From Nemertoderma westbladi (taxonomy: Eukaryota; Animalia; Xenacoelomorpha): a DNA stretch of 64,000 nt. A model generated the notes under the pieces. That model was not told the origin of the DNA and ran no database searches. It saw nothing but the letters and a program-made list of their open reading frames with translations. This document shows positions 3,661 through 49,724 of the stretch, one piece after another. The first letter of the stretch is position 1, and each line of letters opens with the position of its first letter. Position numbers and translations under genes: made by a program. Location of the stretch: contig JAUCBJ010003878.1 of the NCBI GenBank assembly GCA_032718475.1, forward strand, positions 1 to 64,000, given 5' to 3'.

Positions 3661-3836
3661 GTGAGTTTAATTGGACAATAAATAAATATATAAAATCATG
3701 TTACATCATCACATTTTTATACTACCGGTAGCAAATAATTTAAGATTATTAGACAATTTAAGTGATTTGATATTATATATGAATGACTGGACATGTTGGC
3801 TATTTATTTTGAAATAGGCCTAATTGCTATTTTCTT

Positions 3837-6800: not shown

Positions 6801-9800
6801 TGTGAGGGGGTCCAGCAACAAGATCAGCAACAAGTTTATGTGTGTGAGGGGGTCCAGCAACAAGATCAGCAACAAGTTTATGTGTGTGAGGGGGTCCAGC
6901 AACAAGATCAGCAACAAGTTTCTGTGTGTGAGGGGGTCCAGCAACAAGTTTCTGTGTGTGAGGGGGTCCAGCAACACGTTTATGTGTGTGAGGGGGTCCA
7001 GCAACAAGTTTATGTGTGTGAGGGGGTCCAGCAACAAGTTTATGTGTGTGAGGGGGTCCAGCAACAAGTTTATGTGTGTGAGGGGGTCCAGCAACAAGTT
7101 TCTGTGTGTGAGGGGGTCCAGCAACACGTTTATGTGTGTGAGGGGGTCCAGCAACAAGTTTCTGTTTGTGAGGGGGTCCAGCAACAAGTTTCTGTGTGTG
7201 AGGGGGTCCAGCAACAAGTTTATGTGTGTGAGGGGGTCCAGCAACAAGTTTCTGTGTGTGAGGGGGTCCAGCAACACGTTTATGTGTGTGAGGGGGTCCA
7301 GCAACAAGTTTATGTGTGTGAGGGGGTCCAGCAACAAGTTTCTGTGTGTGAGGGTGTCCAGCAACAAGTTTCTGTGTGTGAGGGAGTCCAGCAACAAGTT
7401 TCCGTGTGTGAGGGGGTCCAGCAACAAGTTTCTGTGTGTGAGGGGGTCCAGCAACAAGTTTATGTGTGTGAGGGGGTCCAGCAACAAGTTTATCTGTGTG
7501 AGGGGGTCCAGCAACAAGTTTATGTGTGTGAGGGGGCCTGCAACAAGTTTTTGTGTGTGAGGGGGTCCAGCAACAAGTTTATGTGAGTGAGGGGGTCCAG
7601 CAACAAGTTTATGTGTGTGGGGGGGTCCATCAACAAGTTTATGTGTGTGAGGGGGGTCCAGCAACAAGTTTCTGTGTGTGAGGGGGTCCAGCAACAAGTT
7701 TATGTGAGTGAGGGGGTCCAGCAACAAGTTTCTGTGTGTGAGGGGGTCCAGCAACAAGTTTATGTGTGTGAGGGGGTCCAGCAACAAGTTTCTGTGTGTG
7801 AGGGGGTCCAGCAACAAGTTTATGTGTGTGAGGGGGTCCAGCAACAAGTTTATGTGTATGAGGGGGTCAAGCAACAAGTTTCTGTGTGTGAGGGGGTCCA
7901 GCAACAAGTTTATGTGTGTGAGGGGTCCAGCAACAAGTTTATGTGTGTGAGGGGGTCCAGCAACAAGTTTCTGTGTGTGAGGGGGTCCAGCAACAAGTTT
8001 ATGTGTGTGAGGGGGTCCAGCAACAAGTTTATGTGTATGAGGGGGTCCAGCAACAAGTTTCTGTGTGTGAGGGGGTCCAGCAACAAGTTTATGTGTGTGA
8101 GGGGGTCCAGCAACAAGTTTATGTGTGTGAGGGGGTCCAGCGACAAGTTTCTGTGTGTGAGGGGGTCCTGCAACAAGTTTATGTGTGTGAGGGGGTCCAG
8201 CAACAAGTTTATGTGTGTGGGGGGGTCCAGCAACAAGTTTATGTGTGTGAGGGAGTCCAGCAACAAGTTTCCGTGTGCGAGGGGGTCCAGCAACAAGTTT
8301 CTGTGTGTGAGGGGGTCCAGCAACAAGTTTATGTGTGTGAGGGGGTCCAGCAACAAGTTTATCTGTGTGAGGGGGTCCAGCAACAAGTTTATGTGTGTGA
8401 GGGGGCCTGCAACAAGTTTTTGTGTGTGAGGGGGTCCAGCAACAAGTTTATGTGTGTGAGGGGGTCCAGCAACAAGTTTATGTGTATGAGGGGGTCCAGC
8501 AACAAGTTTCTGTGTGTGAGGGGGTCCAGCAACAAGTTTATGTGTGTGAGGGGGCCTGCAACAAGTTTTTGTGTGTGAGGGGGTCCAGCAACAAGTTTAT
8601 GTGAGTGAGGGGGTCCAGCAACAAGTTTATGTGTGTGGGGGGGTCCATCAACAAGTTTATGTGTGTGAGGGGGGTCCAGCAACAAGTTTCTGTGTGTGAG
8701 GGGGTCCAGCAACAAGTTTATGTGAGTGAGGGGGTCCAGCAACAAGTTTCTGTGTGTGAGGGGGTCCAGCAACAAGTTTATGTGTGTGAGGGGGTCCAGC
8801 AACAAGTTTCTGTGTGTGAGGGGGTCCAGCAACAAGTTTATGTGTGTGAGGGGGTCCAGCAACAAGTTTATGTGTATGAGGGGGTCAAGCAACAAGTTTC
8901 TGTGTGTGAGGGGGTCCAGCAACAAGTTTATGTGTGTGAGGGGTCCAGCAACAAGTTTATGTGTGTGAGGGGGTCCAGCAACAAGTTTCTGTGTGTGAGG
9001 GGGTCCAGCAACAAGTTTATGTGTGTGAGGGGGTCCAGCAACAAGTTTATGTGTATGAGGGGGTCCAGCAACAAGTTTCTGTGTGTGAGGGGGTCCAGCA
9101 ACAAGTTTATGTGTGTGAGGGGGTCCAGCAACAAGTTTATGTGTGTGAGGGGGTCCAGCGACAAGTTTCTGTGTGTGAGGGGGTCCTGCAACAAGTTTAT
9201 GTGTGTGAGGGGGTCCAGCAACAAGTTTATGTGTGTGGGGGGGTCCAGCAACAAGTTTATGTGTATGAGGGGGTCCAGCAACAAGTTTCTGTGTGTGAGG
9301 GGGTCCAGCAACAAGTTTATGTGTGTGAGGGGGCCTGCAACAAGTTTTTGTGTGTGAGGGGGTCCAGCAACAAGTTTATGTGAGTGAGGGGGTCCAGCAA
9401 CAAGTTTATGTGTGTGGGGGGGTCCATCAACAAGTTTATGTGTGTGAGGGGGGTCCAGCAACAAGTTTCTGTGTGTGAGGGGGTCCAGCAACAAGTTTAT
9501 GTGAGTGAGGGGGTCCAGCAACAAGTTTCTGTGTGTGAGGGGGTCCAGCAACAAGTTTATGTGTGTGAGGGGGTCCAGCAACAAGTTTCTGTGTGTGAGG
9601 GGGTCCAGCAACAAGTTTATGTGTGTGAGGGGGTCCAGCAACAAGTTTATGTGTATGAGGGGGTCAAGCAACAAGTTTCTGTGTGTGAGGGGGTCCAGCA
9701 ACAAGTTTATGTGTGTGAGGGGTCCAGCAACAAGTTTATGTGTGTGAGGGGGTCCAGCAACAAGTTTCTGTGTGTGAGGGGGTCCAGCAACAAGTTTATG

Positions 9801-12800
9801 TGTGTGAGGGGGTCCAGCAACAAGTTTATGTGTATGAGGGGGTCCAGCAACAAGTTTCTGTGTGTGAGGGGGTCCAGCAACAAGTTTATGTGTGTGAGGG
9901 GGTCCAGCAACAAGTTTATGTGTGTGAGGGGGTCCAGCGACAAGTTTCTGTGTGTGAGGGGGTCCTGCAACAAGTTTATGTGTGTGAGGGGGTCCAGCAA
10001 CAAGTTTATGTGTGTGGGGGGGTCCAGCAACAAGTTTATGTGTGTGAGGGAGTCCAGCAACAAGTTTCCGTGTGCGAGGGGGTCCAGCAACAAGTTTCTG
10101 TGTGTGAGGGGGTCCAGCAACAAGTTTATGTGTGTGAGGGGGTCCAGCAACAAGTTTATCTGTGTGAGGGGGTCCAGCAACAAGTTTATGTGTGTGAGGG
10201 GGCCTGCAACAAGTTTTTGTGTGTGAGGGGGTCCAGCAACAAGTTTATGTGTGTGAGGGGGTCCAGCAACAAGTTTATGTGTATGAGGGGGTCCAGCAAC
10301 AAGTTTATGTGTGTGAGGGGTCCAGCAACAAGTTTATGTGAGTGAGGGGGTCCAGCAACAAGTTTCTGTGTGTGAGGGGGTCCAGCAACAAGTTTATGTG
10401 TGTGAGGGGGTCCAGCAAGAAGTTTATGTGTGTGAGGGGGTCCAGCAACAAGTTTATGTGTGTGAGGGGGTCCAGCAACAAGTTTATGTGTATGAGGGGG
10501 TCCAGCAACAAGTTTCTGTGTGTGAGGGGGTCCAGCAACAAGTTTATGTGTGTGAAGGGGTCCAGCAACAAGTTTATGTGTGTGAGGGGGTCCAGCAACA
10601 AGTTTATGTGTGTGAGGGGGTCCAACAACAAGTTTATGTGTGTGAGGGGGTCCAGCAACAAGTTTATGTGTGTGAGGGGGTCCAGCAACAAGTTTCTGTG
10701 TGTGAGGGTGTCCAGCAACAAGTTTCTGTGTGTGAGGGAGTCCAGCAACAAGTTTCCGTGTGTGAGGGGGTCCAGCAACAAGTTTCTGTGTGTGAGGGGG
10801 TCCAGCAACAAGTTTATGTGTGTGAGGGGGTCCAGCAACAAGTTTATCTGTGTGAGGGGGTCCAGCAACAAGTTTATGTGTGTGAGGGGGCCTGCAACAA
10901 GTTTTTGTGTGTGAGGGGGTCCAGCAACAAGTTTATGTGTGTGAGGGGGTCCAGCAACAAGTTTATGTGTGTGAGGGGGTCCAGCAACAAGTTTATGTGT
11001 GTGAGGGGGTCCAGCAACAAGTTTCTGTGTGTGAGGGGGTCCAGCAACAAGTTTATGTGTGTGAGGGGGTCCAGCAACAAGTTTCTGTGTGTGAGGGGGT
11101 CCAGCAACAAGTTTATGTGTGTGAGGGGGTCCAGCAACAAGTTTCTGTGTGTGAGGGGGTCCAGCAACAAGTTTATGTGTGTGAGGGGGTCCAGCAACAA
11201 GTTTATGTGTATGAGGGGGTCCAGCAACAAGTTTCTGTGTGTGAGGGGGTCCAGCAACAAGTTTATGTGTGTGAGGGGTCCAGCAACAAGTTTATGTGTG
11301 TGAGGGGGTCCAGCAACAAGTTTCTGTGTGTGAGGGGGTCCAGCAACAAGTTTATGTGTGTGAGGGGGTCCAGCAACAAGTTTATGTGTGTGAGGGGGTC
11401 CAGCAACAAGTTTCTGTGTGTGAGGGGGTCCAGCAACAAGTTTATGTGTGTGAGGGGGTCCAGCAACAAGTTTATGTGTGTGAGGGGGTCCAGCAACAAG
11501 TTTCTGTGTGTGAGGGGGTCCAGCAACAAGTTTATGTGTGTGAGGGGGTCCAGCAACAAGTTTATGTGTGTGAGGGGGTCCAGCAACAAGTTTATGTGTG
11601 TGAGGGAGTCCAGCAACAAGTTTCTGTGTGTGAGGGGGTCCAGCAACAAGTTTCTGTGTGTGAGGGGGTCCAGCAACAAGTTTATGTGTGTGAGGGGTCC
11701 AGCAACAAGTTTATGTGTGTGAGGGGGTCCAGCAACAAGTTTATGTGTGTGAGGGGTCCAGCAACAAGTTTTTGTGTGTGAGGGGGTCCAGCAACAAGTT
11801 TATGTGTGTGAGGGGGTCCAGCAACAAGTTTATGTGTGTGAGGGGGTCCAGCAACAAGTTTCTGTGTGTGAGGGGGTCCAGCAACAAGTTTATGTGTGTG
11901 AGGGGTCCAGCAACAAGTTTATGTGTGTGAGGGGGTCCAGCAACAAGTTTCTGTGTGTGAGGAGTCCAGCAACAAGTTTATGTGTGTGAGGGAGTCCAGC
12001 AACAAGTTTATGTGTGTGAGGGGGTCCAGCAACAAGTTTATGTGTGTGAGGGGTCCAGCAACAAGTTTATGTGTGTGAGGGAGTCCAGCAACAAGTTTCT
12101 GTGTGTGAGGGGGTCCAGCAACAAGTTTATGTGTGTGAGGGGTCCAGCAACAAGTTTATGTGTGTGAGGGGGTCCAGCAACAAGTTTATGTGTGTGAGGG
12201 GTCCAGCAACAAGTTTATGTGTGTGAGGAGTCCAGCAACAAGTTTATGTGTGTGAGGGGTCCAGCAACAAGTTTATGTGTGTGAGGGAGTCCAGCAACAA
12301 GTTTATGTGTGTGAGGGGGTCCAGCAACAAGTTTATGTGTGTGAGGAGGTCCAGCAACAAGTTTATGTGTGTGAGGGGGTCCAGCAACAAGTTTATGTGT
12401 GTGAGGGGTCCAGCAACAAGTTTATGTGTGTGAGGGGTCCAGCAACAAGTTTCTGTGTGTGAGGAGTCCAGCAACAAGTTTCTGTGTGTGAGGGGGTCCA
12501 GCAACAAGTTTATGTGTGTGAGGGGTCCAGCAACAAGTTTATGTGTGTGAGGGGTCCAGCAACAAGTTTATGTGTGTGAGGGGTCCAGCAACAAGTTTAT
12601 GTGTGTGAGGGGGTCCAGCAACAAGTTTATGTGTGTGAGGGGGTCCAGCAACAAGTTTATGTGTGTGAGGGGGTCCAGCAACAAGTTTCTGTGTGTGAGG
12701 AGTCCAGCAACAAGTTTATGTGTGTGAGGGGGTCCAGCAACAAGTTTATGTGTGTGAGGGGGTCCAGCAACAAGTTTATGTGTGTGAGGGGTCCAGCAAC

Positions 12801-15800
12801 AAGTTTATGTGTGTGAGGAGTCCAGCAACAAGTTTATGTGTGTGAGGGGGTCCAGCAACAAGTTTATGTGTGTGAGGAGGTCCAGCAACAAGTTTATGTG
12901 TGTGAGGGGGTCCAGCAACAAGTTTCTGTGTGTGAGGGGGTCCAGCAACAAGTTTATGTGTGTGAGGGGTCCAGCAACAAGTTTCTGTGTGTGAGGGGGT
13001 CCAGCAACAAGTTTATGTGTGTGAGGGGGTCCAGCAACAAGTTTATGTGTGTGAGGAGTCCAGCAACAAGTTTATGTGTGTGAGGGGGTCCAGCAACAAG
13101 TTTATGTGTGTGAGGGGGTCCAGCAACAAGTTTATGTGTGTGAGGGGGTCCAGCAACAAGTTTCTGTGTGTGAGGAGTCCAGCAACAAGTTTCTGTGTGT
13201 GAGGGGGTCCAGCAACAAGTTTATGTGTGTGAGGGGTCCAGCAACAAGTTTATGTGTGTGAGGGGGTCCAGCAACAAGTTTCTGTGTGTGAGGGGGTCCA
13301 GCAACAAGTTTATGTGTGTGAGGGGGTCCAGCAACAAGTTTATGTGTGTGAGGAGTCCAGCAACAAGTTTCTGTGTGTGAGGGGGTCCAGCAACAAGTTT
13401 CTGTGTGTGAGGGGGTCCAGCAACAAGTTTATGTGTGTGAGGGGGTCCAGCAACAAGTTTATGTGTGTGAGGGGTCCAGCAACAAGTTTATGTGTGTGAG
13501 GGGTCCAGCAACAAGTTTATGTGTGTGAGGGGGTCCAGCAACAAGTTTATGTGTGTGAAGGGGTCCAGCAACAAGTTTATGTGTGTGAGGGGGCCTGCAA
13601 CAAGTTTTTGTGTGTGAGGGGGTCCAGCAACAAGTTTATGTGTGTGAGGGGGTCCAGCAACAAGTTTATGTGTGTGAGGGGGTCCAGCAACAAGTTTATG
13701 TGTGTGAGGGGGTCCAGCAACAAGTTTATGTGTGTGAGGGGGTCCAGCAACAAGTTTCTGTGTGTGAGGGGGTCCAGCAACAAGTTTATGTGTGTGAGGG
13801 GGTCCAGCAACAAGTTTCTGTGTGTGAGGGGGTCCAGCAACAAGTTTATGTGTGTGAGGGAGTCCAGCAACAAGTTTATGTGTGTGAGGAGTCCAGCAAC
13901 AAGTTTATGTGTGTGACGGAGTCCAGCAACAAGTTTATGTGTGTGAGGGAGTCCAGCAACAAGTTTCTGTGTGTGAGGGAGTCCAGCAACAAGTTTCTGT
14001 GTGTGAGGGGTCCAGCAACAAGTTTATGTGTGTGAGGGGTCCAGCAACAAGTTTATGTGTGTGAGGGAGTCCAGCAACAAGTTTATGTGTGTGAGGAGTC
14101 CAGCAACAAGTTTATGTGTGTGAGGAGTCCAGCAACAAGTTTATGTGTGTGAGGAGTCCAGCAACAAGTTTATGTGTGTGAGGAGTCCAGCAACAAGTTT
14201 ATGTGTGTGAGGAGTCCAGCAACAAGTTTATGTGTGTGAGGAGTCCAGCAACAAGTTTATGTGTGTGAGGGAGTCCAGCAACAAGTTTATGTGTGTGAGG
14301 AGTCCAGCAACAAGTTTATGTGTGTGAGGAGTCCAGCAACAAGTTTATGTGTGTGAGGAGTCCAGCAACAAGTTTATGTGTGTGAGGAGTCCAGCAACAA
14401 GTTTATGTGTGTGAGGAGTCCAGCAACAAGTTTATGTGTGTGAGGAGTCCAGCAACAAGTTTATGTGTGTGAGGAGTCCAGCAACAAGTTTATGTGTGTG
14501 AGGAGTCCAGCAACAAGTTTATGTGTGTGAGGAGTCCAGCAACAAGTTTATGTGTGTGAGGAGTCCAGCAACAAGTTTATGTGTGTGAGGAGTCCAGCAA
14601 CAAGTTTATGTGTGTGAGGAGTCCAGCAACAAGTTTATGTGTGTGAGGAGTCCAGCAACAAGTTTATGTGTGTGAGGAGTCCAGCAACAAGTTTATGTGT
14701 GTGAGGAGTCCAGCAACAAGTTTATGTGTGTGAGGAGTCCAGCAACAAGTTTATGTGTGTGAGGAGTCCAGCAACAAGTTTATGTGTGTGAGGAGTCCAG
14801 CAACAAGTTTATGTGTGTGAGGAGTCCAGCAACAAGTTTATGTGTGTGAGGAGTCCAGCAACAAGTTTATGTGTGTGAGGAGTCCAGCAACAAGTTTATG
14901 TGTGTGAGGAGTCCAGCAACAAGTTTATGTGTGTGAGGAGTCCAGCAACAAGTTTATGTGTGTGAGGAGTCCAGCAACAAGTTTATGTGTGTGAGGAGTC
15001 CAGCAACAAGTTTATGTGTGTGAGGAGTCCAGCAACAAGTTTATGTGTGTGAGGAGTCCAGCAACAAGTTTATGTGTGTGAGGAGTCCAGCAACAAGTTT
15101 ATGTGTGTGAGGAGTCCAGCAACAAGTTTATGTGTGTGAGGAGTCCAGCAACAAGTTTATGTGTGTGAGGAGTCCAGCAACAAGTTTATGTGTGTGAGGA
15201 GTCCAGCAACAAGTTTATGTGTGTGAGGAGTCCAGCAACAAGTTTATGTGTGTGAGGAGTCCAGCAACAAGTTTATGTGTGTGAGGAGTCCAGCAACAAG
15301 TTTATGTGTGTGAGGAGTCCAGCAACAAGTTTATGTGTGTGAGGAGTCCAGCAACAAGTTTATGTGTGTGAGGAGTCCAGCAACAAGTTTATGTGTGTGA
15401 GGAGTCCAGCAACAAGTTTATGTGTGTGAGGAGTCCAGCAACAAGTTTATGTGTGTGAGGAGTCCAGCAACAAGTTTATGTGTGTGAGGAGTCCAGCAAC
15501 AAGTTTATGTGTGTGAGGAGTCCAGCAACAAGTTTATGTGTGTGAGGAGTCCAGCAACAAGTTTATGTGTGTGAGGAGTCCAGCAACAAGTTTATGTGTG
15601 TGAGGAGTCCAGCAACAAGTTTATGTGTGTGAGGAGTCCAGCAACAAGTTTATGTGTGTGAGGAGTCCAGCAACAAGTTTATGTGTGTGAGGAGTCCAGC
15701 AACAAGTTTATGTGTGTGAGGAGTCCAGCAACAAGTTTATGTGTGTGAGGAGTCCAGCAACAAGTTTATGTGTGTGAGGAGTCCAGCAACAAGTTTATGT

Positions 15801-16533
15801 GTGTGAGGAGTCCAGCAACAAGTTTATGTGTGTGAGGAGTCCAGCAACAAGTTTATGTGTGTGAGGAGTCCAGCAACAAGTTTATGTGTGTGAGGAGTCC
15901 AGCAACAAGTTTATGTGTGTGAGGAGTCCAGCAACAAGTTTATGTGTGTGAGGAGTCCAGCAACAAGTTTATGTGTGTGAGGAGTCCAGCAACAAGTTTA
16001 TGTGTGTGAGGAGTCCAGCAACAAGTTTATGTGTGTGAGGAGTCCAGCAACAAGTTTATGTGTGTGAGGAGTCCAGCAACAAGTTTATGTGTGTGAGGAG
16101 TCCAGCAACAAGTTTATGTGTGTGAGGAGTCCAGCAACAAGTTTATGTGTGTGAGGAGTCCAGCAACAAGTTTATGTGTGTGAGGAGTCCAGCAACAAGT
16201 TTATGTGTGTGAGGAGTCCAGCAACAAGTTTATGTGTGTGAGGAGTCCAGCAACAAGTTTATGTGTGTGAGGAGTCCAGCAACAAGTTTATGTGTGTGAG
16301 GAGTCCAGCAACAAGTTTATGTGTGTGAGGAGTCCAGCAACAAGTTTATGTGTGTGAGGAGTCCAGCAACAAGTTTATGTGTGTGAGGAGTCCAGCAACA
16401 AGTTTATGTGTGTGAGGAGTCCAGCAACAAGTTTCTGTGTGTGAGGAGTCCAGCAACAAGTTTCTGTGTGTGAGGGAGTCCAGCAACAAGTTTATGTGTG
16501 TGAGGAGTCCAGCAACAAGTTTATGTGTGTGTG
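3837..16533. repeat. About 12.7-kb intronic minisatellite; 30-bp unit GTCCAGCAACAAGTTT(A/C)TGTGTGTGAGGGG grading into a 29-bp unit ending GAGGA
   Basis: Directly visible array of more than 400 units filling the 13-kb G alpha intron 3661-16723, with higher-order duplications. Confidence 0.98.
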
Positions 16534-17294: not shown

Positions 17295-17646
17295 ATTACG
17301 GGAGTCCTGCAGTATATTCGAGATTATTATAAACAACAGATTTTTCACCAACGTCTCTATTATTTTGTTCCTCAATAAAACGGATCTTCTGGAGGAGAAG
17401 ATTAAACGAGTATCGATTGGCGATTACTTCCCCGAGTTCGAGGGGGACTCGACGAACTTAGAGGAAGTTCAGCGGTTCATATTCCAGCTGTTCGATAACT
17501 GTCGCAGACCCAGCCAGCGAGCCCTGTCAAAGACATTGTTCCACCACTTTACCACGGCCGTGGACACGGAAAAGATTCGTTTTGTGTTCCGCGCCGTCAA
17601 GGATACCATTCTGGAAGAGAATTTAAAGCAGCTGATGCTGCAATGA
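17295..17646 (+). CDS. GNA12/13: G alpha 12/13 terminal coding exon
   Basis: TTTCCAG acceptor; LRESCSIFE...[12 protein letters not shown]...[10 protein letters not shown]...[11 protein letters not shown]; the NLKQLMLQ C-terminus is characteristic of the G12/13 class. Confidence 0.95.
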
Positions 17647-20155
17647 GGTCAGCTCTTGCGAATTAGTCATACTTTTTGCCGTGCTACATTTTTTATATAG
17701 TATTCGCTAAAATTATGTGTACCGATAAACGAGTATTATTGGTTTAGAGTCCATCCATAAATGACGTCATTGGTTTAGGGTCCATCCATAAATGACGTCC
17801 CGCGAGAAATGTGTGGGGGGGGGGGGGGGGGGGGGTCCACAATGGCACGTCAAATTATTTAACTCGTAAACTTGAAATATTTTTTGTTTTTGTTTGTATC
17901 CTGACTTGCCGTTGCATTCCATGCTGATAGTGAGTAAGTCATTTTATATTGTATCATCTCATCACATTGATAAAGTAAAGTAAATGTAATCGGTGTACGT
18001 ACGTGAAACACAACACCGGAGGCAACCATAATGCCCTTCTCTCTTGGCTGTTACCTATAAGGCAGGGAGGGCGTCGGCGTCACTTCAATTCCCAGGGGTG
18101 AACTGAACACTCCACTCCGTAAGTATCAAAACGTTTTATTTACTTGACCAGCAGTAACCAGGTTCATATCGATGTATTTGTGCACCATTTTCAAAATGAT
18201 AGCTTACTGCTCCCGACGTCATCTATGGTTGGCCCTAACGTTTGTTTCCATTGTAATTGTGCTTGTTGAACTCCTATTAGCACCCTCGCCATTTGCCTAC
18301 ACCCCCAACCCCACCAACAACGGTTTTATCTGAATTCCTTTATCATAGTTTTAATATTTAAGTAATGTACGTTTTATTTTGTTAAAAATGATCATGGGTT
18401 TGAGATTATTTTGTTGATTTATTTCCGTCTTGGGTGTTTTATTTTTAGCCTAATATAGGTAGGTAAAGATAGTGAAGGGCCAATTCTGCAGGAGATGTAA
18501 TTAATTCAGTATACAATCGATGGTGTTGTATCATTGGGACCTAAAGTTATAAAAACTACGTTTTTAGGAAGCTAAATAAATTATTGAAAGTCGAATTTTG
18601 ACTTCGAATTAGGCCATTATGTAATTTGAAATATCTCAGCATTCAGGTATTCTGGTTCACGTGGTGTTGGCAGGATCTACTCCGTATGTTATGACACTGC
18701 CGGTGGATCCTGTCGGTGGTTCTACCTAATGGATCAATAATCGCACATTGGCTCCATATAAAATCATCAACTATTTTAGAATTAATTTAAAAACTTGTTT
18801 TAATTTGTTTTTTTTTTGTGATATATAAAATTGTTATTTACATACTTATGTGCCCTTTACAGAATGATGATCCGAGTGGTTTGTTACACGAACGAACGTA
18901 GCGAGTAGGTGAAAATAAAAACACGAGGGCCAGAACATAGTAAATTTGTAGTTTTATTACGAATTTGTGACATTACGAAATTACTGCTGTTTTTTTTGGG
19001 GAATTTCTCGAATTTTTGATTTGACATCACAGAAATATTTAAACTAAACTTTGGGTGGTAACCAAGATGAGACGGTATTGCACTTTCCGATTCAGTTTAA
19101 TAATAAAGCCAGTCGCTGTTCTATAATGATTATACTACAGAATGTACCAACGGCTTCAACTAATGTTACAATTTTGAAGTAAAAATTACATATTTTGTTA
19201 CATGTGAGGCTAGAAAGGTATATATATTGGGGTTTTTCACTTCGTTGAATTCGATTACGTTTATTCGTACCCCCTAAGTGACTAAGGTTTTTATTTCAAT
19301 GTAAACAAACTGAGGTTATTATTTGTAGTAGAAAAATAAACAAACTAACAAAATAAACTTAATAATTGGAATGCGTAAAGTGGACATTTTAGCTGCTTAT
19401 TTTTGTAATGAATTTAATGATTCTACCCTTTTTTTATTGGTATAAATTTAGTCAACTTTTAATTTAAATGCGCTGGAATAATAATAAAGGTGGACTTTCC
19501 TATAAAGTACTGGGACATAGTTAATCCGGGTTGCATGCGTACACTGTATTTATTGGTTGTAACACTAATAGTTATGGTAAGTTGGGTGTCTCATTCAATG
19601 TTTAAATTGCGTTGCTTCAATTATTAATATTGTATTTTATGATTTACAATTTTTTAAACAAGTAATCATTTATCTTAGTCAACCTATTGTGACATTATGG
19701 AGACGAACTTTTAGCTTCAACTATCGTTGTTATGTATTTTCTATGAGGATATGTTTTATTATATAGGTTGAATACTTTATATATTTATATTATATTCGTA
19801 ATTTACGCACAATTTATGTATGAAACTAATTTTATGAATAAGCCTCTCTAGTTGTGTAATAATGTTATTTTATTTTCTATTACGTGATTGGTTACTTGTA
19901 ATATTCCAAAAGACTTACATTATTTGTGGGAGTTTAACTAACAATTTACTTCGCGAAATATTTTTTAGTTATAAAATGTAGGATTGATAATAGCAAATAA
20001 ATTATTATTGTGGGGTCAAGTGACAGTGTATTAAATATAATAGGATGATGATAAAGCTATCCAAAGCAAATAATATCAACCGACCCCGTTGGGGCTCGAA
20101 CCTCGAACCCGGTTCTCTACGCTGTTTCAGTTCGATGTTATTATATGTCGTTGTA

Positions 20156-20171: not shown

Positions 20172-21895
20172 ATAACTACTATATTGTAGTCAGATTATTT
20201 TAGATAAATCAGAAACCAACAAAAATGTATTAATTACATTAATTAATTGTTGATTGCTTGATTCATAACTAAAATTAGTTTGTTTCTCTATATGACCTGC
20301 TTGGCTCGACTGCCTCCTTTTTGATTGATTCTATTAAAAAGTTTGTTCATTTTTGAGACACACAACGATTTTTTATATGGCCATATATTTTACACGGGAA
20401 AGATGTACCAACAAACTATATCATTATCTATTAAATATATTATTTATGAATGCATATAATTAGCTGCACGATTCATATTAATTGTTACTAGCCTGAAATT
20501 GGAATGTGTCCGTTTACGGGTTAGTATTATATGACATCACATTTATTACTCTAAAAATATTATTTATTTATATATATTTATTGATAATGTTTGCTGCGCC
20601 ATATTATTTACCTCAAATAATATTGATATTGATATATAATGATATATTGATATACTATCATAATGTTTTAGCTTTAATTACTGCAGAAAGATAATATAAT
20701 TTGCAATTCAACATTATATTCAACCCTTGGCTGTGCAGAAATCCACTCCAACCTGGATTGGGATATTAACTACCAAATCTTTTAATTCCGAGTTATGTAC
20801 TGAGTAATTTTATTTTAAGTGTATTTTGTGAACAAATTCCTGTTTGAATTGTTTGTCTTAAAGTTTATTAAATCCACTATTACTATAACTAATTATTGTG
20901 CCAAATATGAGGGATTATCGTTAACCCATTGGTTTTATGTACTTTTTTTGATGATTAATAAATTACCATGGTATTTCCAGTCACAGTAATTACTATTATG
21001 CATAATATATAATTATAATAACTGTTGTTAAAGCTTTACTTCATTCTATTTTATGGTTTATTTTATGTACCTTAAATTGTTACCTTATACAACTACTTCG
21101 TTATATGCATTATTATAATATAGCCTATAATACAATAATATTCTACTTACACGTCTAAAAAACAATTTTATTTTGTAATATAGTTTATATATAATTCTGA
21201 CTGTCAATATTATGGAACTAGAAACGTGAAGGAACCGCCTGGGTCAACCAAGGTCAACAAAAACTAAACTCATTACCGTCTCTTCGCAGGCTCTGGACAG
21301 GTTTCGTTTAAGTCTAGTTTAGATTTATTACAGTACAGTTCCATGGTCTTAGCCAATATGAGAACTCACATACCTATAGAGCCCTGCCCAAACTATAGAC
21401 CGTGACCCACATATGGGGTGTAGAGACCATTGTATGATGTTCCTATCGAATATGGGCATATTATGTTTCGTTTATGTCTAGTCGAGATTTAGTGAGTGTA
21501 TGAATGGTTCTTCGCTTAAAGATGAAGGATGTTCTCCTATCGTATCGAGTACCAAGTTTTAGTGTGGTCCCCCAGAACTACAATCTATTTAACGATGCGA
21601 GATGCGCCCTCACTAGTCACTGGAAAGCATTATTTGTGCCGAAAATAAATCTGCCTTGTCCCCATGCCATTTAACCACTACGCCAAGCAAGGTAGAAGCT
21701 TAAACCGTACAAAATTATTTAAAGTGTTCTTGTAAATAGTTCTACATTATGGTTGCTTTGGAAACAATCATCTGTGAAACATTTTTTATTAGTATGAATA
21801 AATTGTTGTAGTTGAGCTGTTAATACAACTTAGCTGTTCAATAGAAGTGGAACAAAAAGTAAGGCGAGTGTCAGGGGAGAGTGGCTGAACCTATT

Positions 21896-21941
21896 AGCGC
21901 TACTGAAGAGGCCTGATAGGCCGAAACGAACGTATAGCGCT
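21896..21941 (+). ncRNA. Minimal type I hammerhead ribozyme (Penelope/retrozyme-like)
   Basis: AGCGCTA-CTGAAGA-GGCCT gat AGGCC-GAAAC-gaac-GTA-TAGCGCT: 7-bp stem I, CUGANGA core, 5-bp stem II, GAAA, 2-bp stem III, GUA cleavage triplet (cut after 21934). Confidence 0.85.
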
Positions 21942-23774
21942 GGTTCAACCCCCAGTCACACGATTTCTCATTTCTGAACAACTTATTACATTATTCATTA
22001 AAGTTTCATTAACAACTCAGTATTAGTAAGGCTTAGTAACAACAGCTTAGTATGGGCCGAGACACGAAGTAAGGTGAGCATTAGGCTTGGCTTGGTGGTT
22101 CCAATTTATCAAACTGTCGTTCGATTCGAATATTTGAACGTTAATAACTCAGCCAATCCTTGATGAAATGTAACCAGGTTCAACCAGTTCGAGTCTACAG
22201 TGGCAAGAGGGTGAAATGTCTGATAAAAGTTAAAACTTTCTCCCATTTACTTCAGTTTAATCCGCACAAGCTGAATGACAAGCAGATTGACCTTAAACCG
22301 AATAGCTGTTCCTTCGTCATATCGCTGCTCTGAATATTTGACACTATTAATTAATTCTACGGAATTAAATTAAATTTGGTTCCCATGAGTCTGTCAAAAT
22401 ATTATAAATCTTACAAAAAAAATTGGAAGGTGTTTGGGGGGGGGGGGGGTCGCGCATAATGTGAAGACTAATAGGCTTACGCAGCATAAAAATACAGCTG
22501 CAATGCAGCATGTCGATCCTAGTAGTACAGTAGTGTGCGCAAAGTAGCCAAGAACTTGTAATACCCACGTTGGCAGCGGTTTAATTAACTTTGTGTCTAT
22601 TTATAAGATTTTATTTTAATCAAATTAGTGCAATGAAAATAACCCTTTTATTATTTTAAAATAACCAAATTAAGAAAGTCATATAAATGTAACATTTAAA
22701 TATTTTATTCAAATCGAACTTTTTTCTTTGGTCTCGAATTAACCGGTATTCACAATAGTCGCTATCTTCCGGGGCGTCATCTTCTTCGTCCCACTGGGAA
22801 CTAAACAGAATATAATCGTCCCAATCGTCGTGAAGAAGTTGAAGAAGTACCCACATCGGAATGAACAATACTGGTTTTTATTTAACATGACGTTATAGTT
22901 CGGCAACGATCATAATTATAAACCTCTTGTATCAACTGAATCCCGAGAAAGTGGGTATCAGTTTAAATTGATAGCCGCGATGGTTTCAAAACTCGACAAC
23001 AATATAGTTAATACATTCACTATAATTCAAATAGACATTAAATATATAGTTAATAGTAAATATTAATAACTGGCCAACTAATGTATAGTACATAGATGTA
23101 CCAATTAACCACTCAAATGCTGTACATGATAATGAGGGACGGTAATTAGGTGAGACGCATTGTTATTGGATTCATATAGACGACAAAAATTACGTTGATT
23201 TTCCCCTGTAGAGGATTACATTTTTCTTGCTCGAAAGTCCCCCCATCTGCAGCATTAATGAATGTTAACTTACAACACAATTTAAACCTCCCACCAAGCC
23301 TCTTCGCTTTTATTGGAAAATTTAATTATCCTACTATAAGCTACAAGGTGCAGTAATGGTTGGTTGATGATTTTTCTATGAGATTTAACTAACTGTTGCT
23401 TAAAAGCAACAAGTACAACAAACTGACAAAGGGTTAACAATTAACGGAAAGGAGCAGGTTATACTGTACAGTAGTTGCGGGCATTTTCTAACCAAATTAA
23501 TATACGAAAATAAAAACAGATGCTGCAGTATAAATGTTGTTACGTGATTTTCAATAAAATTAAAAGTCCCAAAAATAGGTAATCGCCCTTTCTGCTTTCA
23601 GCCCTAGGCCAGGACCTAACTGCTACCGTATTAACATTACCACCTAATGCAGTACACAGTACTGTAGCTGCGGCAGTGCGGTGTAGCCTATTTGTGTAGA
23701 GCAGTGCAGAAGGCTAGCTGGCTCGGCATACTACCGGTACGGGACCCTAACTGCTGAACTGCAGTTGCAGAGTT

Positions 23775-24015
23775 ATGGGCGATCAGGAGGATACACAACA
23801 ACTAACATCAATACCAGTCGAAGATGAGGTTTCTAATTCCTCCACTCGGGAGCGGGAGGTCGATACAATGCCGGTAACGCAACCACCGGTTCGGGATCGC
23901 CGTTGTGGATCTGTTGACGTGGGTGTGGAAGCGAACGCGGGACAGCCCGACCTCAGAGATCGCACCAAGGACATGTTCGCTAAAATTCACACATATATCC
24001 AAGGAGAACTAGAAG
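23775..24015 (+). CDS. BLOC1S2: BLOC-1 subunit 2 (BLOS2), coding exon 1
   Basis: ATG 23775; ends ...TKDMFAKIHTYIQGELE(G), similar to BLOC1S2 DMFSKMATYLTGEL; GTAGG donor at 24016 (phase 1). Confidence 0.88.
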
Positions 24016-24248
24016 GTAGGCTATGACGAGACTAAAACTCCTAAAAAGGCTGCAGGCGGTAGGTACCTAAATAAAGGTATAAAGCAGTGCATGCATTGGC
24101 TGTATTGTCTAAATCCTGTGATCTGGTGATGGGATGGCAGGGATGACTAAGATATTTTTTGAATTTCTTTACATTATTTCTAGAGTGTTGACTGTTGAGC
24201 CTCACAATTTGCCATTGAGTTTTATCATTAGGCGTAAGTACAGAAGTA

Positions 24249-28353: not shown

Positions 28354-29196
28354 TTGTCGTCTGCGTTCAAATTTTTACATGCTATAGTTAATTGGGCAAC
28401 CAAGGTGAGAGATTTATTGAACACCCTCGGTTACAGTAATGTGTGGTCCACCCAGAGTGAATTAATACAGTCCAGAACGCAGTTCCTTGCATCAGTAAAA
28501 GTTCGCATCAGAGATCAATTTAAACAGAGATGGAGACAGGATATTGTCGAATCACCAAAGGGAGTTTTTTACATTAAGGAAACCTTCAGGACATCTTCAT
28601 ATATTCAACTTCTGCATAATCATTTAAGTCTAAGACAGTCATTTGCGCGCTTCCGTTGTAGTTCCCACTATCTTGCAATCGAAACCGGTAGATGGTATAA
28701 CATTCCTCGGGATCAACGTCTTTGTATTGTTTGTGGCAACGGAGATGTGAAGGACGAGTACCATTTCCTTCTGGTATGCGAGAAATATAATTCTTTACGT
28801 TGTAATTATCTTGGTCGGTTCTTTTCTCGGTACCCGTCCATTTTCAAATTCAACAAATTGATGTGCGCGTTCGACAATAACATAGTTTTCGGAATAGCAT
28901 TGTATATATTCTATGCAATGAAGGCAAGGGGATCTGTACTAAGGGGCTCGGGTTTTGAAAACTATACATAACATATTTTTGCTTTGAAATGCGATTTCTT
29001 ATTATATTTATTTTTATTGTGTGCTCTTCAATATTGTTTATTTTCATTTTGGAATATATTGTATAGATAAGCTCTATATTGTTGATGTGCAGTATAATTT
29101 GTAAATAATTATCCATAACTGTGCTTGTGCTTGTAATCTATCAACAGGGGTCTTAAGTGCCCTAAGTTTGAATAATATACTAACTATTACTGCTAT
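28354..29196 (+). mobile_element. 3' fragment of a non-LTR retrotransposon (RTE-X-like C-terminal CCHC domain, 3' UTR and short TAC tail)
   Basis: RFRCSSHYLAIETGRWYNIPRDQRLCIVCGNGDVKDEYHFLLVC is a typical LINE ORF2 C-terminal zinc-finger region; followed by an AT-rich UTR and TACTAC repeats at about 29178-29196. Confidence 0.8.
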
Positions 29197-31259
29197 TAAC
29201 GATCGGGTTTAAAGCTGTAGAGTTGAAAATGTGTAGGTATCAACCCAAACGTTGAGATTTTTTAGGGACTTTTAGGCATCATTAGTTCCCTCTACCGCTA
29301 GAGGGTTCACGTTTCTTTGCTTTTAATCCTTTCAAGCTGAAACTTGTCCGATATGTACTAGAACACTTACTACTACTATTGATTGCAATGTAATTCAATT
29401 CATTCATTCATTCAATATTTTATATTGAATTGTAATTCAATGTAAGCTGATTGATTTCAATACTAAAACTGATTGAATGCATATAAACTAATTGATTTCA
29501 ATAGCAAAACTGATTGAATGCGTATACTGGTTGATAGTATAAATATTGGATTTTGGGCCATTTGTGATGCCATAGGGGTAGCTTTGTATCTTTATTATTT
29601 TATCGAATTGGGATGCAGCAGTTAAAAAATGTTAAGATTATTATTATACATATGTACAGTAATACATTTGGTTCCATTAGGTATCCATACGGTAATTAAA
29701 AATTGAGTGACACCTAAAGGAACAAGCAGCAAACAATGTCAGCCAAAACAATTAACTAGAGTGCATAGGTGACACTTTTATATTAGTTCACATTTCGCAA
29801 TACCGTACCAGACGACGTGGATGTCGGTTGTCGCTTGTCGGCATAGCGTAGAGGAGTTAGTAGATCTTGCTGACTAACGTGAATGGAGACGCATTCATTA
29901 TGGCATTAAAAGAGCACTGAATAATGGGAGTAATTAAATATACTTTCAGTATCCATCGAAATGCCTGGGTGTGGTCTGGTAATTCTGCCTCACCGTATAA
30001 CGAAAGTATTTTAATGTATCCAGTCAGCGAGTACTAAACTCTCGCTTACAGGAGTTAGCAGGTTGATGACCCTTACTCAGCTACTGCCTACGGAAACGAG
30101 AATTGTCTCATAAGCTATCCTCGACATTCTTATCTAGCTAGACTATCTTAAATTTGACTCCCATTTCCATCGACCCAACCTAAACTGATTTTAAACCTTC
30201 ATAATAAGATAATACCGGTAATACAGTAATAATAAAACAAGGCTTAGTCTTTCTTTTCTGCTACTGCAGTACCGGCAGACTGGTAACTAACTGAGACTGA
30301 CTGAGTTGAGTACTGGAGTACAGGTAGCCAGGTAGCGGTCAGGCGGTAGGTAACAGGGTAAAGTACTGCAGTACTGTTGTACTCTGGTACTACTGGCAGA
30401 TTGGCTGACTGGTAAGTGGTACTGGCTGACTGGTCTGCTGGCTGCTGGGCTGGCTGGCAGGCTCAGGCTGGTAACCCCAACCAAAATAGGAAAGCGAATA
30501 TTCGTTGGTTTGGTGCCATTGGTGATTGGAATTTGGAGGTGGAGATAGAGCACATTGCAGCATTGTGACATTAGCTGATTATAGGCCTACAGCATTAGCA
30601 GTGCTGCAGTGCATTGCATTGGCAGATTGCAGCAGCAGGCATACACGCGCAGACGTGCCGGCGTCAGGAGACTACTGCCCTATAATTGGAATTTTGTCCG
30701 GATTGAGTGCTAAAAATTGAAAATGTCATTACAAAAAAAGTGTGTCGGCGAATGGGATTTGAACTCGGTACCTACTTGTGTACTTACTCTGTTACTGTCT
30801 TATACAGCTGTACAGTCTGACAGTTATTGTATCCTATTAGCCTATAGTCCTACACTATACTGCTATACCGGCACCGCAGATACCGTCAACCGTCTGACCG
30901 TATACCGTACTGCCGTAGGCCTAATACATAGCCTAATACATCATACTATCAGATTCATTATATTTAATTTCTTACTGTACAGTCAGACAGTTGACTGTGT
31001 GATGTTGCTTCTACCGTAGTAATTTGCAATTTGTGCCGAATAGGCCTATTCGTCAACTCAAATTTTAAAATTCGGCCGAAACCGAATATGCCATATTCGA
31101 CAAAATTACAGAATTAGGTTCTGTTACCGAACTGCCGAACCGAATAATTCGGTCGATCCCTTTGGCAGGTACAGCATCGCGCAGACCTCGTGCAACTGTG
31201 CAAGCATACCGATATCTCACTGCTGCACTGTGCAGCTGTGCACTGGAATGGAATCGGTC

Positions 31260-31480
31260 GACTTCAGATCAGAAACATGCTCACACTCGCAGAAGCCAAC
31301 ATCCGCGGCCATTCGTTTAAGCTAATCAAACCGCGCGCTCCTCTCCTCCAACGCAACGCAACAATCCATTTCTGGGTCGTTGACCCCTCTGAACGGAACG
31401 CCTTATCCGAATCTGTAGTAACCGCACACTTAACGCTTTCAAATCGAGATTCAATAACCACTACAAAAACTTGCCGCTCA
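31260..31480 (+). mobile_element. Degenerate CR1-type LINE 3' end
   Basis: NIRGHSFKLIKPRA...NALSESVVTA resembles the CR1 ORF2 C-terminal motif TRGHxxKL...WNxLPxxVV. Confidence 0.65.
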
Positions 31481-33424
31481 AATTTACCCCCTCCTACCCT
31501 CCTGGTGGTCCGAATAACGAGACTTACAGTCAATCCCCCCCCCCCCCCCCCCCCCCCGTCTCCACAAACTCACATTAGTTATATTTAATTGTTTTCTTTT
31601 TTTAGTCAGTTAGTCGCACATCGATATTTATTTTTATCTTATTTCAGTATTTTACTTATCTACTTATTTTTCACTTTATCTACTTATTTTTATGGAACTA
31701 TTTTATCTTACAGTCTTATTTTACTTATCTAGGCCTAACTATATTTCATCGTATCAATTATACAGTACTGCAGTAATCAGGTAATTTCTACCAATCGTTC
31801 GTATTTTTAAATAGACCCAAACCAAATGGTGCAACTATCTCTGCAACTATCTATATTACTTGTGATTTTATTTCTCAAATAATCCCATTCATATGCTATA
31901 TTTTATTTTAATTAAATCCATCAGTTCTACATACCAAACTGTTTGATACAACGATTTTATCGAATTTTTAATATTATTTTATATTTTATTTGAACCCTTA
32001 TTTTCTCACCGTGTAGTGTAAGCTAATCCATGTAAATTCATGTGTTCAAATGTTTTGACCTATTTTACAAACCGTACTGTTTTTTAGCCTTGGATTTATC
32101 TGATATTTTAAATTAATTTTATATTTTATTTTAACCCTTAAACTGTGTAATTATTTTCCCTACGTGTACAGGTGTAGTGCAGTAGTGTAAACTATTCCAT
32201 GTAAATTTATGTGTTCAAATGTCTTGATCTATTTTACATACCGTACTGTTTTTATACGCCATGATTCTACAGTTCTATCTAATATATTACAAAATTTTAT
32301 CAGTTTCATGATTTTACTAAACGTTTGCTACATGTACAGCCTACTGTACAGTGTACATACATACATACCGGTAATACATATTATTTACTTTCAGTTCTGC
32401 AGTTTGACCTTTCCAGTAATTGGTGTTTCTATCGATTTGTTTTGTACGGGTGCCATAAGTATTTAGCTTTCTTTACCCTCAACTATTAAACATAATATTT
32501 GAAACATTACCAGTAGTTTAAAAAGGCTTAGCATAATGTAGGCCTACCACGGACCACACAGGTATTTAACTCGATTGACTGTTTAATTCAAATTTGGGGC
32601 AGATTGAATAAGAAGGAAAGTCGGTAGCTATTAAATGTCTGCCACTGCCGGTAGCTATCAGTGTTGCAAATTCAGCAATAGCAACACACGAATTAGGCTG
32701 CGATTATATTTCCGGACATATTTTGGCTGTAACTCCACTAGCTGACAGGCTGACTAGTCCTCAAAGCAGAACCAGGACACATTTTGACTATAATTCACGT
32801 TTTTGGACATAATGTGACGTTTTATATTTTTAATATTAACAGATTAATGATAGTTATCCCGACGATGTGATGGGAGATTCTAATTCTCAAATTAATTTAT
32901 ACAGAATTTCTGAATTTTATGGCGATTCTAATAATTTTAAGGCTTAATTTTTAGAATGCCAATGTTGAAATTTTCTCTGCCGGTTTTCCAATGAAATTTA
33001 GCATTGTTTTCTTAAACTTAAGAATTTATTTATCTGCTTAAATTATTTTTAAGTAAACCCGGCATTTTAAAGCCGGGGCCGGGTCTGAAAAATCAACCGT
33101 TTCCTACACAGGATACCCTGCTGCGGCTGCCCTGGTCATGTCATGCCATACTCACCAAGCTCTCTAAGCAGTACATCAGTACGCCTACTGACAGACTGGT
33201 GGCTGGGTGGTAATGTTGTGAAGACTGGCGAAACTTGACTCCCTGTTTTATCTTTCTGTTTTATTATATTTTAACTTCCTGTACGTATCCTTACCGTACG
33301 TTGGGGACCGTCCCTTAAAACACTTATATATGTATTTATAATTTATATATATACCGCTTATTTTATAATGCTTTAAAAAATTAAAATTTTTTTCATTAAC
33401 ATTTTTTCTACCGACTGTCTGACG

Positions 33425-33700: not shown

Positions 33701-34480
33701 AAAAATGGTGAAATTAATTTGCTGCACTGCACATGAAATTAATTTGAATTGTTTAATACTCGTACCGGCAGACCGGTATTTCTATTATTATACTCAGATT
33801 ATGATGTTATGTATAATAAAAATATTGATTGAGAAACCATGTTTATCTAAAATCTTTATAATTTTTGGGAAAATTTTTCCCGTCTTTTTTCCCGCTATTT
33901 CCCCGAGGAGACCGGGAAATTTGTGAAAAATATCAGAGTCTTTTCATATATAGACATTGTAGAAATGAAATATGAGAAAAATTTTCTAAGTGTTTCCCAC
34001 CAGACAAGTGTTTTAGACACATGTGTTTTTTGCGTTTCGGTGCCCCCCAAACCGGAAATTCCCTCCTGTTTTATGATATATTTGAACATATTAATAGAAC
34101 AAGTTGCTCCAAAGGTATCAAAAAAGCGCATCCCCACCCGATATTACCGGTATGAGCTTAAAAATACCTCAAATTTAACCAAAAAACAAAAATTTTCGAC
34201 AGTCTATTACCGGTACCAGAATTTGAAATTTGGGGTAGGCCTAACCCCAAACTGCCAAAATTGATGATCTCCCTGACTGTTTATTTCGGTTTAAAGTTTA
34301 AACTTAGTTTCGTTCTTACGTCAGTACCGGTACGTAATTAGTTATTGTGTTTGTGTTTTGTAACCATCTCTTTCATAATTACATATACCATACTTTCTCT
34401 GATTTTAATAATAAACCGACTAGATTCATTATAACTGTTTATCAACAATAATATAATCATAATATATAAGTAATATTAAT

Positions 34481-38870: not shown

Positions 38871-38937
38871 AGGAAAGATAACATTGTAACTAGAGTAACA
38901 TTTAAATTTCTTAAAACTGTATTTTTGTATTTCCTAG

Positions 38938-49652: not shown

Positions 49653-49724
49653 AAATTCCGAAATTAATTTTATAAAAAAATATTACACAATCATAATACA
49701 CTTATAATTTTTGTTGGGCACAGC

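What the first reader, a model, noticed from the sequence alone, without database searches (positions are those of the whole stretch)
21886..21947. Minimal type I hammerhead ribozyme with intact catalytic core in intergenic DNA
Seen: all core elements in the correct topology: stem I AGCGCTA/TAGCGCT (extendable by TGAACC/GGTTCA across a 4-nt bulge), CUGAAGA, stem II GGCCT/AGGCC, GAAA, a 2-bp stem III with GAAC loop and a GUA cleavage site. Established: hammerheads with very short stem III are typical of Penelope-like element pseudo-LTRs and retrozymes and often cleave as dimers. No Penelope RT/GIY-YIG ORF or second copy was seen here, so this is a solo remnant or an exapted self-cleaving site. 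It is sense to both flanking genes, 4.3 kb after the G alpha stop and 1.8 kb before the BLOC1S2 ATG, where it could cut read-through transcripts.
Basis: partly seen in the sequence, partly recalled or inferred. Interest (0 to 1): 0.8.

Follow-up and report, generated by a model that had tools for sequence, protein, structure and literature searches.

The report
Lone hammerhead repeat inside tRNA promoter
Between two animal genes lies a complete hammerhead self-cutting RNA motif set between two tRNA-type promoter boxes; it is one worn copy of a repeat with many relatives in the same species, so it is likely a leftover of a jumping RNA element rather than a gene regulator.

Summary
The motif is real and exact: the only hammerhead in the window, with 0 strict hits in 300 shuffles. 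It is not unique. 356 contigs of one run align to this 300-bp stretch, and core depth is about 900 times single-copy depth (rough). It fits the canonical animal type I hammerhead, not the Penelope 'minimal' form; no GIY-YIG match in 81 ORFs. The 'extension' of stem I is promoter sequence: a Pol III B box (21942-21952) and a partial A box (21882-21893) that is complete in some relatives. Relatives also carry a palindromic loop 3 and a T6 run after the B box. This copy has lost the palindrome centre, the T run and the A-box GG, but keeps the catalytic core. Best reading: an aged solo copy of a non-coding retrozyme/SINE-like family, probably inert. No two-sided stem covariation was seen; cleavage and expression are untested. 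The scan noted this 'hammerhead inside tRNA promoter' layout before on other pieces of this genome, as tandem arrays; four literature searches did not find it in print.

The parts
21834..22022 (+). Family-like segment, solo copy of a dispersed non-coding repeat; ends uncertain (a lower-depth piece reaches left to about 21797-21801)
   Evidence: 7 of 16 listed pieces start exactly at 21834; one relative aligns to 22022; X1 depth is single-copy (24) up to 21790; long relatives differ by about 8-12%
21882..21893 (+). Pol III A-box-like motif, first nine positions intact, GG missing (TGGCTGAACCTA); some relatives read TGGCTGAGCTGG or TGGCTGAACTGG
   Evidence: Sequence; loose ends and variant rows 21891-93; box consensus recalled
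21886..21895 (+). Outer stem I 5' arm (inside the A box) and 4-nt bulge
21896..21902 (+). Stem I 5' arm
   Evidence: no variant at 2% or more in relatives
21903..21909 (+). CUGANGA core box; N7 is A here and T in 90% of laid depth
21910..21922 (+). Stem II: 4 bp GGCC/GGCC with loop UGAUA, or 5 bp with loop GAU
21923..21934 (+). GAAA box, 2-bp stem III with loop GAAC (family GUAC, which makes an 8-nt palindrome), GUA triplet; predicted cut between 21934 and 21935
   Evidence: T at 21929 in 99.5% of X1 depth
21935..21941 (+). Stem I 3' arm, with U at position 1.7
   Evidence: role of U1.7 in the loop-loop contact recalled
21942..21952 (+). Exact Pol III B box GGTTCAACCCC, also the outer stem I 3' arm
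   Evidence: Only strict B box on the + strand of the window; about 1e-4 chance in a given 20-nt stretch
21953..21981 (+). Decayed 3' flank: four differences from the family majority (two are CpG to CpA) and a short deletion that removes the T6 run of relatives
   Evidence: Rows 21954, 21957, 21960, 21963 and loose ends behind 21973; no T4 run until 22609
21787..21794 (+). Weak candidate target-site duplication TATTAGTA, left copy
   Evidence: one of three 8-mer matches in AT-rich flanks, not significant alone
22021..22028 (+). Weak candidate target-site duplication, right copy
17296..17646 (+). Context: last coding exon of a G-alpha 12/13 gene
23775..24017 (+). Context: inferred first coding exon of BLOC1S2
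   Evidence: ATG; Pfam BLOC1_2 only on the next exon

Best explanation
This is a single, partly decayed copy of a many-copy non-coding repeat in which a type I hammerhead motif sits between tRNA-type A and B promoter boxes; the family is likely a self-promoting retrozyme, predicted to cut its RNA and likely pasted back by a Penelope-type reverse transcriptase, while this copy is likely inert. Shown: the motif, the boxes, the many relatives, and the differences between this copy and the majority. Inferred steps: (1) Pol III or read-through transcription makes family RNA. (2) Hammerheads cut after GUA, best in pairs through the palindromic stem III. (3) The cut falls between the A and B boxes, so only a circle, a multimer or an uncut RNA holds a whole promoter; this copy spans the cut site by about 100 nt upstream and 90 nt downstream, so its template would have been such an RNA. 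(4) After insertion, this copy or its small subfamily lost the palindrome centre, the T-run terminator and two CpGs. If transcribed it would probably still cut slowly as a monomer.
For: Motif exact and beyond chance. Records laid on 21761-22060: 356 in X1, 21 in X4. Summed depth about 25,000 at the core against 24-31 on unique flanks in X1; at 21929 the ratios are about 2,600, 4,600 and 4,600 in X1, X2, X3 (the tool warns that this is no copy number, so it gives an order of magnitude only). Strict B box abuts stem I. Complete A boxes in relatives: a 7-contig loose-end consensus in X1 and one X4 contig. T at 21929 in 99.5% of depth; predicted stem III duplex -9.8 kcal/mol family/family, -5.1 mixed, -2.6 for this copy with itself. 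T6 run in loose ends of all four runs (33, 35, 38 and 4 contigs). Five opposite-strand joints at 21834/21844 with partners at 21876-21903, as expected for the inverted 5'-truncated copies of PLE insertions (PMC8557442 passages). Only 7 of 39 variant rows fall in the 52-nt ribozyme and none in the 14 stem I positions. Monomeric invertebrate retrozyme hammerheads cleave in vitro (PMC7229834).
Against: No tandem unit, unit length or circle was seen here; tandem arrays with this layout are known only from unchecked scan notes, and two sequence look-ups did not link them to this copy. No two-sided covariation in stems I-III, and the laying method favours reads that match the core. The T6 run 18 nt after the B box would end a Pol III transcript at about 100 nt, which fits poorly with Pol III making multimers. 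The GG-less A box is not private: about 75% of the depth laid at 21891-93 reads as the window does (about 100 single-copy equivalents), so it may be a subfamily trait. All 5 CpGs in the core are kept while 2 of 2 just outside are lost (p about 0.05, post hoc). No inverted piece at this locus. Part of the depth at 21921-21950 probably comes from half-hammerhead derivatives.
Confidence: 0.7

Rival explanations
1. The family is a tRNA-derived SINE-like Pol III unit: A box, hammerhead, B box and T6 give an RNA of about 100 nt that cuts itself or acts in trans as the dimer partner of other copies, and this copy may still be transcribed from its intact B box.
For: Box spacing is 48 nt and a T6 run follows the B box in relatives. 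The B box is exact here. Schistosome Sm-alpha is Pol III-transcribed and cleaves in cis or trans (PMC6765202 passages).
Against: This copy lacks the A-box GG and the T run. Relatives share sequence at least 40 nt upstream of the predicted start and 50 nt beyond the T run, more than a 100-nt transcript would carry. ARAGORN and Rfam see no tRNA.
Confidence: 0.12
2. It is a remnant of the pseudo-LTR of an autonomous Penelope-like element.
For: PLE pLTR hammerheads mostly occur as single motifs from truncated copies, and some have a small palindromic helix III (PMC4209133). Opposite-strand joints occur among relatives.
Against: The geometry is canonical rather than min-HHR (no 7-8 bp helix II, no extra nucleotide before 10.1). 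No GIY-YIG match in 81 non-tandem ORFs of 70 aa or more; the only RT pieces (RVT_1 with DUF6451) are 39 kb away. A and B boxes are not a described pLTR feature in the passages read.
Confidence: 0.1
3. This copy has been co-opted to cut G-alpha read-through or upstream BLOC1S2 transcripts and so insulate the two genes.
For: It is sense to both genes and has an intact core. Core CpGs are kept while flank CpGs are lost (p about 0.05). Its left part is present in two differing alleles from two studies (X1 record 4, X3 record 20) and no empty-site joint was listed. Precedent: the Clec2 3' UTR hammerhead (PMC6765202, PMC6155905 passages).
Against: With about a thousand copies, some will lie sense between two genes by chance; intergenic solo copies are the commonest class in Xenopus. 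Core conservation is shared by the whole family, so it needs no locus-specific selection. Stem III is formed only 8% of the time in the model and the dimer palindrome is broken.
Confidence: 0.06
4. The motif is a chance arrangement of letters.
For: Rfam does not call it at threshold; fold z-score -1.34.
Against: 0 strict hits in 300 shuffles; hundreds of related contigs with the same core.
Confidence: 0.01

Closest known systems
Metazoan non-LTR retrozymes (Cervera and de la Pena 2020, PMC7229834, parts 2-4 of 6 read; Li, Clavereau, Pollet, bioRxiv 10.64898/2026.07.22.740005, part 1 of 5 and passages; supplements not seen)
   Same: Canonical type I hammerhead with 2-bp helix III and tetraloop, no protein, thousands of copies, solo intergenic copies common, self-paired flanks, PLE as likely mobiliser.
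   Different: No tandem repeat at this locus. The hammerhead is nested between A and B boxes, whereas the review PMC7761336 (passages) says retrozymes seem to have no promoter.
Schistosoma Sm-alpha / Sj-alpha SINE-like hammerhead retroposons (PMC6765202 and PMC2770079 passages; Ferbeyre 1998 and Laha 2000 not read)
   Same: tRNA-derived, Pol III-type promoter plus type I hammerhead in a high-copy repeat.
   Different: There the promoter ends up at the 3' end of the cleaved unit. Here the cut lies between the two boxes, and the boxes themselves form outer stem I.
[quoted passage not shown]
   Same: Type I topology, weak helix III, palindrome for dimer cleavage, many solo copies.
   Different: Helix II 4-5 bp not 7-8, helix I 6-7 bp not 4-5, no extra nucleotide before 10.1, no PLE ORF in the window.
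L1Tc Pr77 / L1TcRz of Trypanosoma (PMC3383444, search listing and start of abstract only)
   Same: One short sequence serves as an internal promoter in DNA and as a self-cleaving ribozyme in RNA.
   Different: HDV-like ribozyme at a LINE 5' end, not a hammerhead between tRNA boxes.

Membership tests
Type I hammerhead ribozyme | Core CUGANGA, GAAA, NUH in three-way junction with open stem I | tested here: met
Type I hammerhead ribozyme | Rfam hammerhead model at gathering score | tested here: not met
   0 hits at gathering; Hammerhead_3 15.9 bits, E 6.9
Type I hammerhead ribozyme | Two-sided covariation of stems among homologues | tested here: inconclusive
   stem I arms invariant at the 2% level; only one-sided, wobble-keeping changes (21891, 21922); variants are not phased
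Type I hammerhead ribozyme | Self-cleavage | not testable with these tools
   Needs transcription assay
Canonical metazoan type I HHR (PMC4209133) | Helix I about 6 bp, helix II 4 bp, helix III 1-2 bp with 2-4 nt loop | tested here: met
   against definition
Canonical metazoan type I HHR (PMC4209133) | Palindromic loop 3 | tested here: inconclusive
   Met by the family majority, broken at one position (21929) in this copy
PLE min-HHR | Helix II 7-8 bp, helix I 4-5 bp, extra nucleotide between 9 and 10.1 | tested here: not met
Penelope-like element | RT plus GIY-YIG ORF between pLTRs | tested here: not met
   No GIY-YIG match in 81 ORFs, motif scan empty, no second copy; window only
Penelope-like element | Inverted 5'-truncated copy next to the insertion | tested here: inconclusive
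   Five opposite-strand joints among relatives; none at this locus, 120 of 2000 shuffles score as high
Non-LTR retrozyme | Head-to-tail units of 150-450 bp, each with a hammerhead | tested here: inconclusive
   Absent at this locus; family level not visible in short contigs; no genome held
Non-LTR retrozyme | Non-coding, high copy number | tested here: met
   No ORF of 60 aa or more over the element
Non-LTR retrozyme | Expressed as unit-length linear and circular RNA | not testable with these tools
   Only contigs were available
tRNA-derived SINE / Sm-alpha type | Internal A and B boxes | tested here: met
   B box exact; A box complete in some relatives, partial here; consensus recalled
tRNA-derived SINE / Sm-alpha type | Recognisable tRNA cloverleaf head upstream of the body | tested here: not met
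   ARAGORN 0, no Rfam tRNA at E 10; the hammerhead fills the place of the anticodon arm
tRNA-derived SINE / Sm-alpha type | Target-site duplication and LINE-type tail | tested here: inconclusive
   Weak 8-bp candidate; tail not tested
tRNA-derived SINE / Sm-alpha type | Pol III transcription | not testable with these tools
   Needs promoter assay

The most novel reading that the evidence does not exclude
The family is a tRNA gene whose anticodon arm was replaced by a hammerhead: a 100-nt Pol III unit (A box, ribozyme, B box, T6) in which the promoter boxes double as ribozyme stem I and the cut splits the promoter. Its short RNAs could pair through the palindromic stem III with any sense copy in a Pol II transcript and switch on cleavage in trans, making about a thousand solo copies, this one included, a conditional RNA-cutting network.
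Probability: 0.1. Interest if true: 0.8.

Novelty: new variant of a known kind. Interest (0 to 1): 0.4.

Why it matters
The locus itself is probably an inert remnant. The family layout matters more. How animal retrozymes get transcribed is open (a review says they seem to lack promoters, PMC7761336). A hammerhead nested between A and B boxes gives a small, directly testable self-promoting unit and links SINEs to retrozymes. This copy is also a natural mutant, with intact core but broken palindrome and lost terminator, for testing monomer against dimer cleavage.

Tried and rejected
No whole genome is held, so no genome-wide search. Pattern scans found nothing in viral contigs or metagenome contigs. 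No RNA holder was listed among 8 runs, so expression is untested. Run X4 has uneven depth (300-740 at 20800-21135, a contig ending at 21162 with 18 unaligned letters, no cover on the flanks of the element) and holds 0.54 of the words against 0.53 of the stretch lying before 21162. That would fit an RNA run in which the G-alpha 3' UTR ends about 770 nt before the cut site, but the run is recorded as 'DNA?', was not confirmed, and is not used as evidence. No listed contig bridges the right junction (X1 depth 0 at 22031-22060); the tool says such a hole proves nothing. An inverted copy at 21795-21833 was tested and rejected (120 of 2000 shuffles and 8 of 238 real flank pieces score as high). Look-ups of earlier findings by sequence, nearby (34) and by words (60) were empty. 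Literature searches for the nested layout showed no such paper among the listings; a search for the U1.7 contact found nothing useful, so that point is recalled. PMC10886601, PMC5786205, PMC3088659 and PMC8490949 were seen as passages and do not mention the layout there. Supplements of PMC4209133 and PMC7229834 were not opened and might list this family. The species was not determined.

Full report
Observation. A type I hammerhead descriptor finds only this site on either strand of the window; 300 dinucleotide shuffles gave 0.01 loose hits per window and no strict hit. Stems I and II are predicted at 0.65-1.0 in contexts of 62 to 401 nt, the 2-bp stem III at 0.08. Rfam does not call it at gathering score and gives only a weak Hammerhead_3 match. 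The neighbours are a G-alpha 12/13 gene and BLOC1S2, 4,240 and 1,828 nt away. The window holds no second copy and no GIY-YIG match among 81 non-tandem ORFs of 70 aa or more; RT fragments lie 39 kb away.

Class. PMC4209133 (parts 1-2 of 4 read) separates canonical metazoan type I hammerheads (helix I 6 bp, helix II 4 bp, helix III 1-2 bp with a small palindromic loop) from PLE min-HHRs (helix II 7-8 bp, helix I 4-5 bp, an extra nucleotide before 10.1). This motif reads as helix I 6 bp plus U1.7, helix II GGCC/GGCC with loop UGAUA, and a 2-bp helix III with a tetraloop. It is canonical, so 'minimal' is a misnomer. That U1.7 and the last A of loop 2 make the tertiary contact is recalled, not checked.

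It is one of many copies. No genome is held, so I laid contigs of four public runs of the same organism (three samples, three studies; X1 may be the source of the assembly) on the locus. On 21761-22060, 356 X1 records and 21 X4 records were laid. X1 depth is 24 on the unique left flank, about 25,000 at the CUGA box and 70,000-82,000 over the 3' half. Against single-copy depth that is about 900 for the whole core and 2,600-4,600 at 21929 in X1-X3. The tool warns that summed contig depth is no copy number, so I take it as an order of magnitude. The excess on the 3' half probably comes from derivatives that lack the 5' half (back-joints 21953 to 21920, loose end before 21918). Seven of 16 listed pieces begin at 21834 and one reaches 22022. 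Two differing alleles (X1, X3) run from the unique flank into the element as far as 21890, and no joint skipping the element was listed; the right junction is not bridged by any listed contig.

The hammerhead sits inside a tRNA-type promoter. Two earlier scan notes (e1-10614364, e1-10653974) described this layout on other pieces of the genome and gave me the lead; I tested it here. GGTTCAACCCC at 21942-52 is the only strict B box on the + strand; the chance of one in a given 20-nt stretch is about 1e-4, and an A-half plus B pair occurs 0.025 times per shuffled window. Upstream, the window reads TGGCTGAACCTA at 21882-93; loose ends of relatives show TGGCTGAGCTGG (7 X1 contigs) and TGGCTGAACTGG (one X4 contig), complete A boxes by the recalled consensus. 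No cloverleaf is left. In all four runs the loose ends behind 21973 begin with three more T, giving a T6 run about 18 nt after the B box (33, 35, 38, 4 contigs), a likely Pol III terminator.

How this copy differs. At 21929, 99.5% of X1 depth has T, which makes stem III an 8-nt palindrome; the window has A. Predicted duplex energy falls from -9.8 to -2.6 kcal/mol, or -5.1 with a majority partner. After the B box the copy differs from 97-99.5% of depth at 21954, 21957, 21960 and 21963, two of these being CpG to CpA; it also lacks the T run, and has no T4 until 22609. Non-majority depth at these places equals 5-16 single copies, so the changes are private or belong to a small subfamily. The GG-less A box is shared by about 75% of the depth laid there, about 100 copy equivalents, so it may be a subfamily trait; copies with other upstream sequence are clipped and under-counted. 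In the 52-nt ribozyme lie 7 of 39 variant rows, none in the stem I arms. Changes at 21891 and 21922 keep a G-U pair; a G5 change is rare (0.5% in X1). All five core CpGs are kept against 0 of 2 just outside (p about 0.05, post hoc), which a functional source element explains as well as selection on this copy.

Mechanism. Shown: anatomy, boxes, relatives, differences. Inferred: family RNA is made by Pol III or read-through and cut after GUA, best in pairs; because the cut splits the promoter, only circles, multimers or uncut RNA hold both boxes, and this copy spans the cut site, so it came from such a template. PLE mobilisation is inferred from five opposite-strand joints among relatives, with a fixed end at 21834/21844 and variable partners at 21876-21903, which match the inverted 5'-truncated copies described in PMC8557442 (passages), and from the proposals in PMC7229834 and bioRxiv 10.64898/2026.07.22.740005. 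No such inversion is detectable at this locus. Monomers are not necessarily dead: coral and mussel retrozyme hammerheads cleaved at about 0.8 and 0.1 per minute, and an axolotl one with a 2-bp helix III reached 22% in an hour. The T6 run is the loose thread: it predicts a primary RNA of about 100 nt, which does not give unit-length circles, and it keeps the SINE-like or trans-partner reading open.

Rivals. pLTR remnant 0.10, short Pol III unit 0.12, co-option for the two genes 0.06, chance 0.01. Co-option has no positive evidence beyond orientation and the weak CpG contrast, and intergenic solo copies are the usual case in Xenopus.

Novelty. Hammerhead repeats with a tRNA-derived promoter are known from Schistosoma (PMC6765202, PMC2770079 passages), but there the promoter ends up at the 3' end of the cleaved unit. 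A hammerhead between the two boxes did not appear in four searches; the library lacks most subscription papers, the original Sm-alpha papers were not read and supplements were not opened. I class the family as a new variant of a known kind and this locus as a probably inert solo copy. Interest 0.4.

Noticed in passing
window 22487-22533: End of a very high-copy repeat (summed depth 313,000-572,000 in X1-X3) followed in relatives by GTA repeats, SINE-like; two more copies in the window at 46150-46191 and 60475-60526.
   Followed up: partly
window 22060-22180: Piece of another high-copy repeat (depth 21,000-48,000 at 22133-22176) about 100 bp after the hammerhead element.
   Followed up: no
window 21225-21520 and 23005-23185: Two moderately repeated segments with weak similarity to each other.
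   Followed up: no
window 20848-21162: Run X4, recorded as 'DNA?', has 300-740 depth here with steps near 20960 and 21162, close to AATAAA at 20957 and AATACA at 21129; possibly an RNA run marking the G-alpha 3' ends. Unconfirmed.
   Followed up: partly
window 22611-23059: An exact X4 contig covers this single-copy stretch upstream of BLOC1S2, which holds a 73-aa minus-strand ORF (22656-22877) with no Pfam match.
   Followed up: partly
relatives of window 21920-21953 (27 tables): Contigs that return from 21953 or 21949 to 21920-21929 suggest short tandem derivatives made of the hammerhead 3' half plus B box.
   Followed up: no
window 3838-16531, 35982-38877, 40442-41080, 44981-46038, 48325-49654, 50318-54713, 62088-63406: Large minisatellite arrays of 22-31 bp period; the 12.7-kb array (427 copies of 30 bp) lies between G-alpha exons at 2643-3104 and 16724.
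   Followed up: no
window 3-992 (-): 330-aa open frame without Pfam match, ending in a CxxC-like stretch; looks like a retrotransposon gag-like fragment (impression only).
   Followed up: no
window 60769-61868 (-), 28354-28968 (+), 31148-31585 (+): Broken RT pieces (RVT_1, DUF6451) and two stretches that resemble LINE C-terminal ends (resemblance recalled).
   Followed up: partly
window 20092-20102 (-): A strict B box in a short tRNA- or SINE-like fragment downstream of G-alpha.
   Followed up: no
window 34463-39205 (+), 56362-58312 (+): PP2A scaffold subunit A exons and histidine acid phosphatase exons.
   Followed up: no
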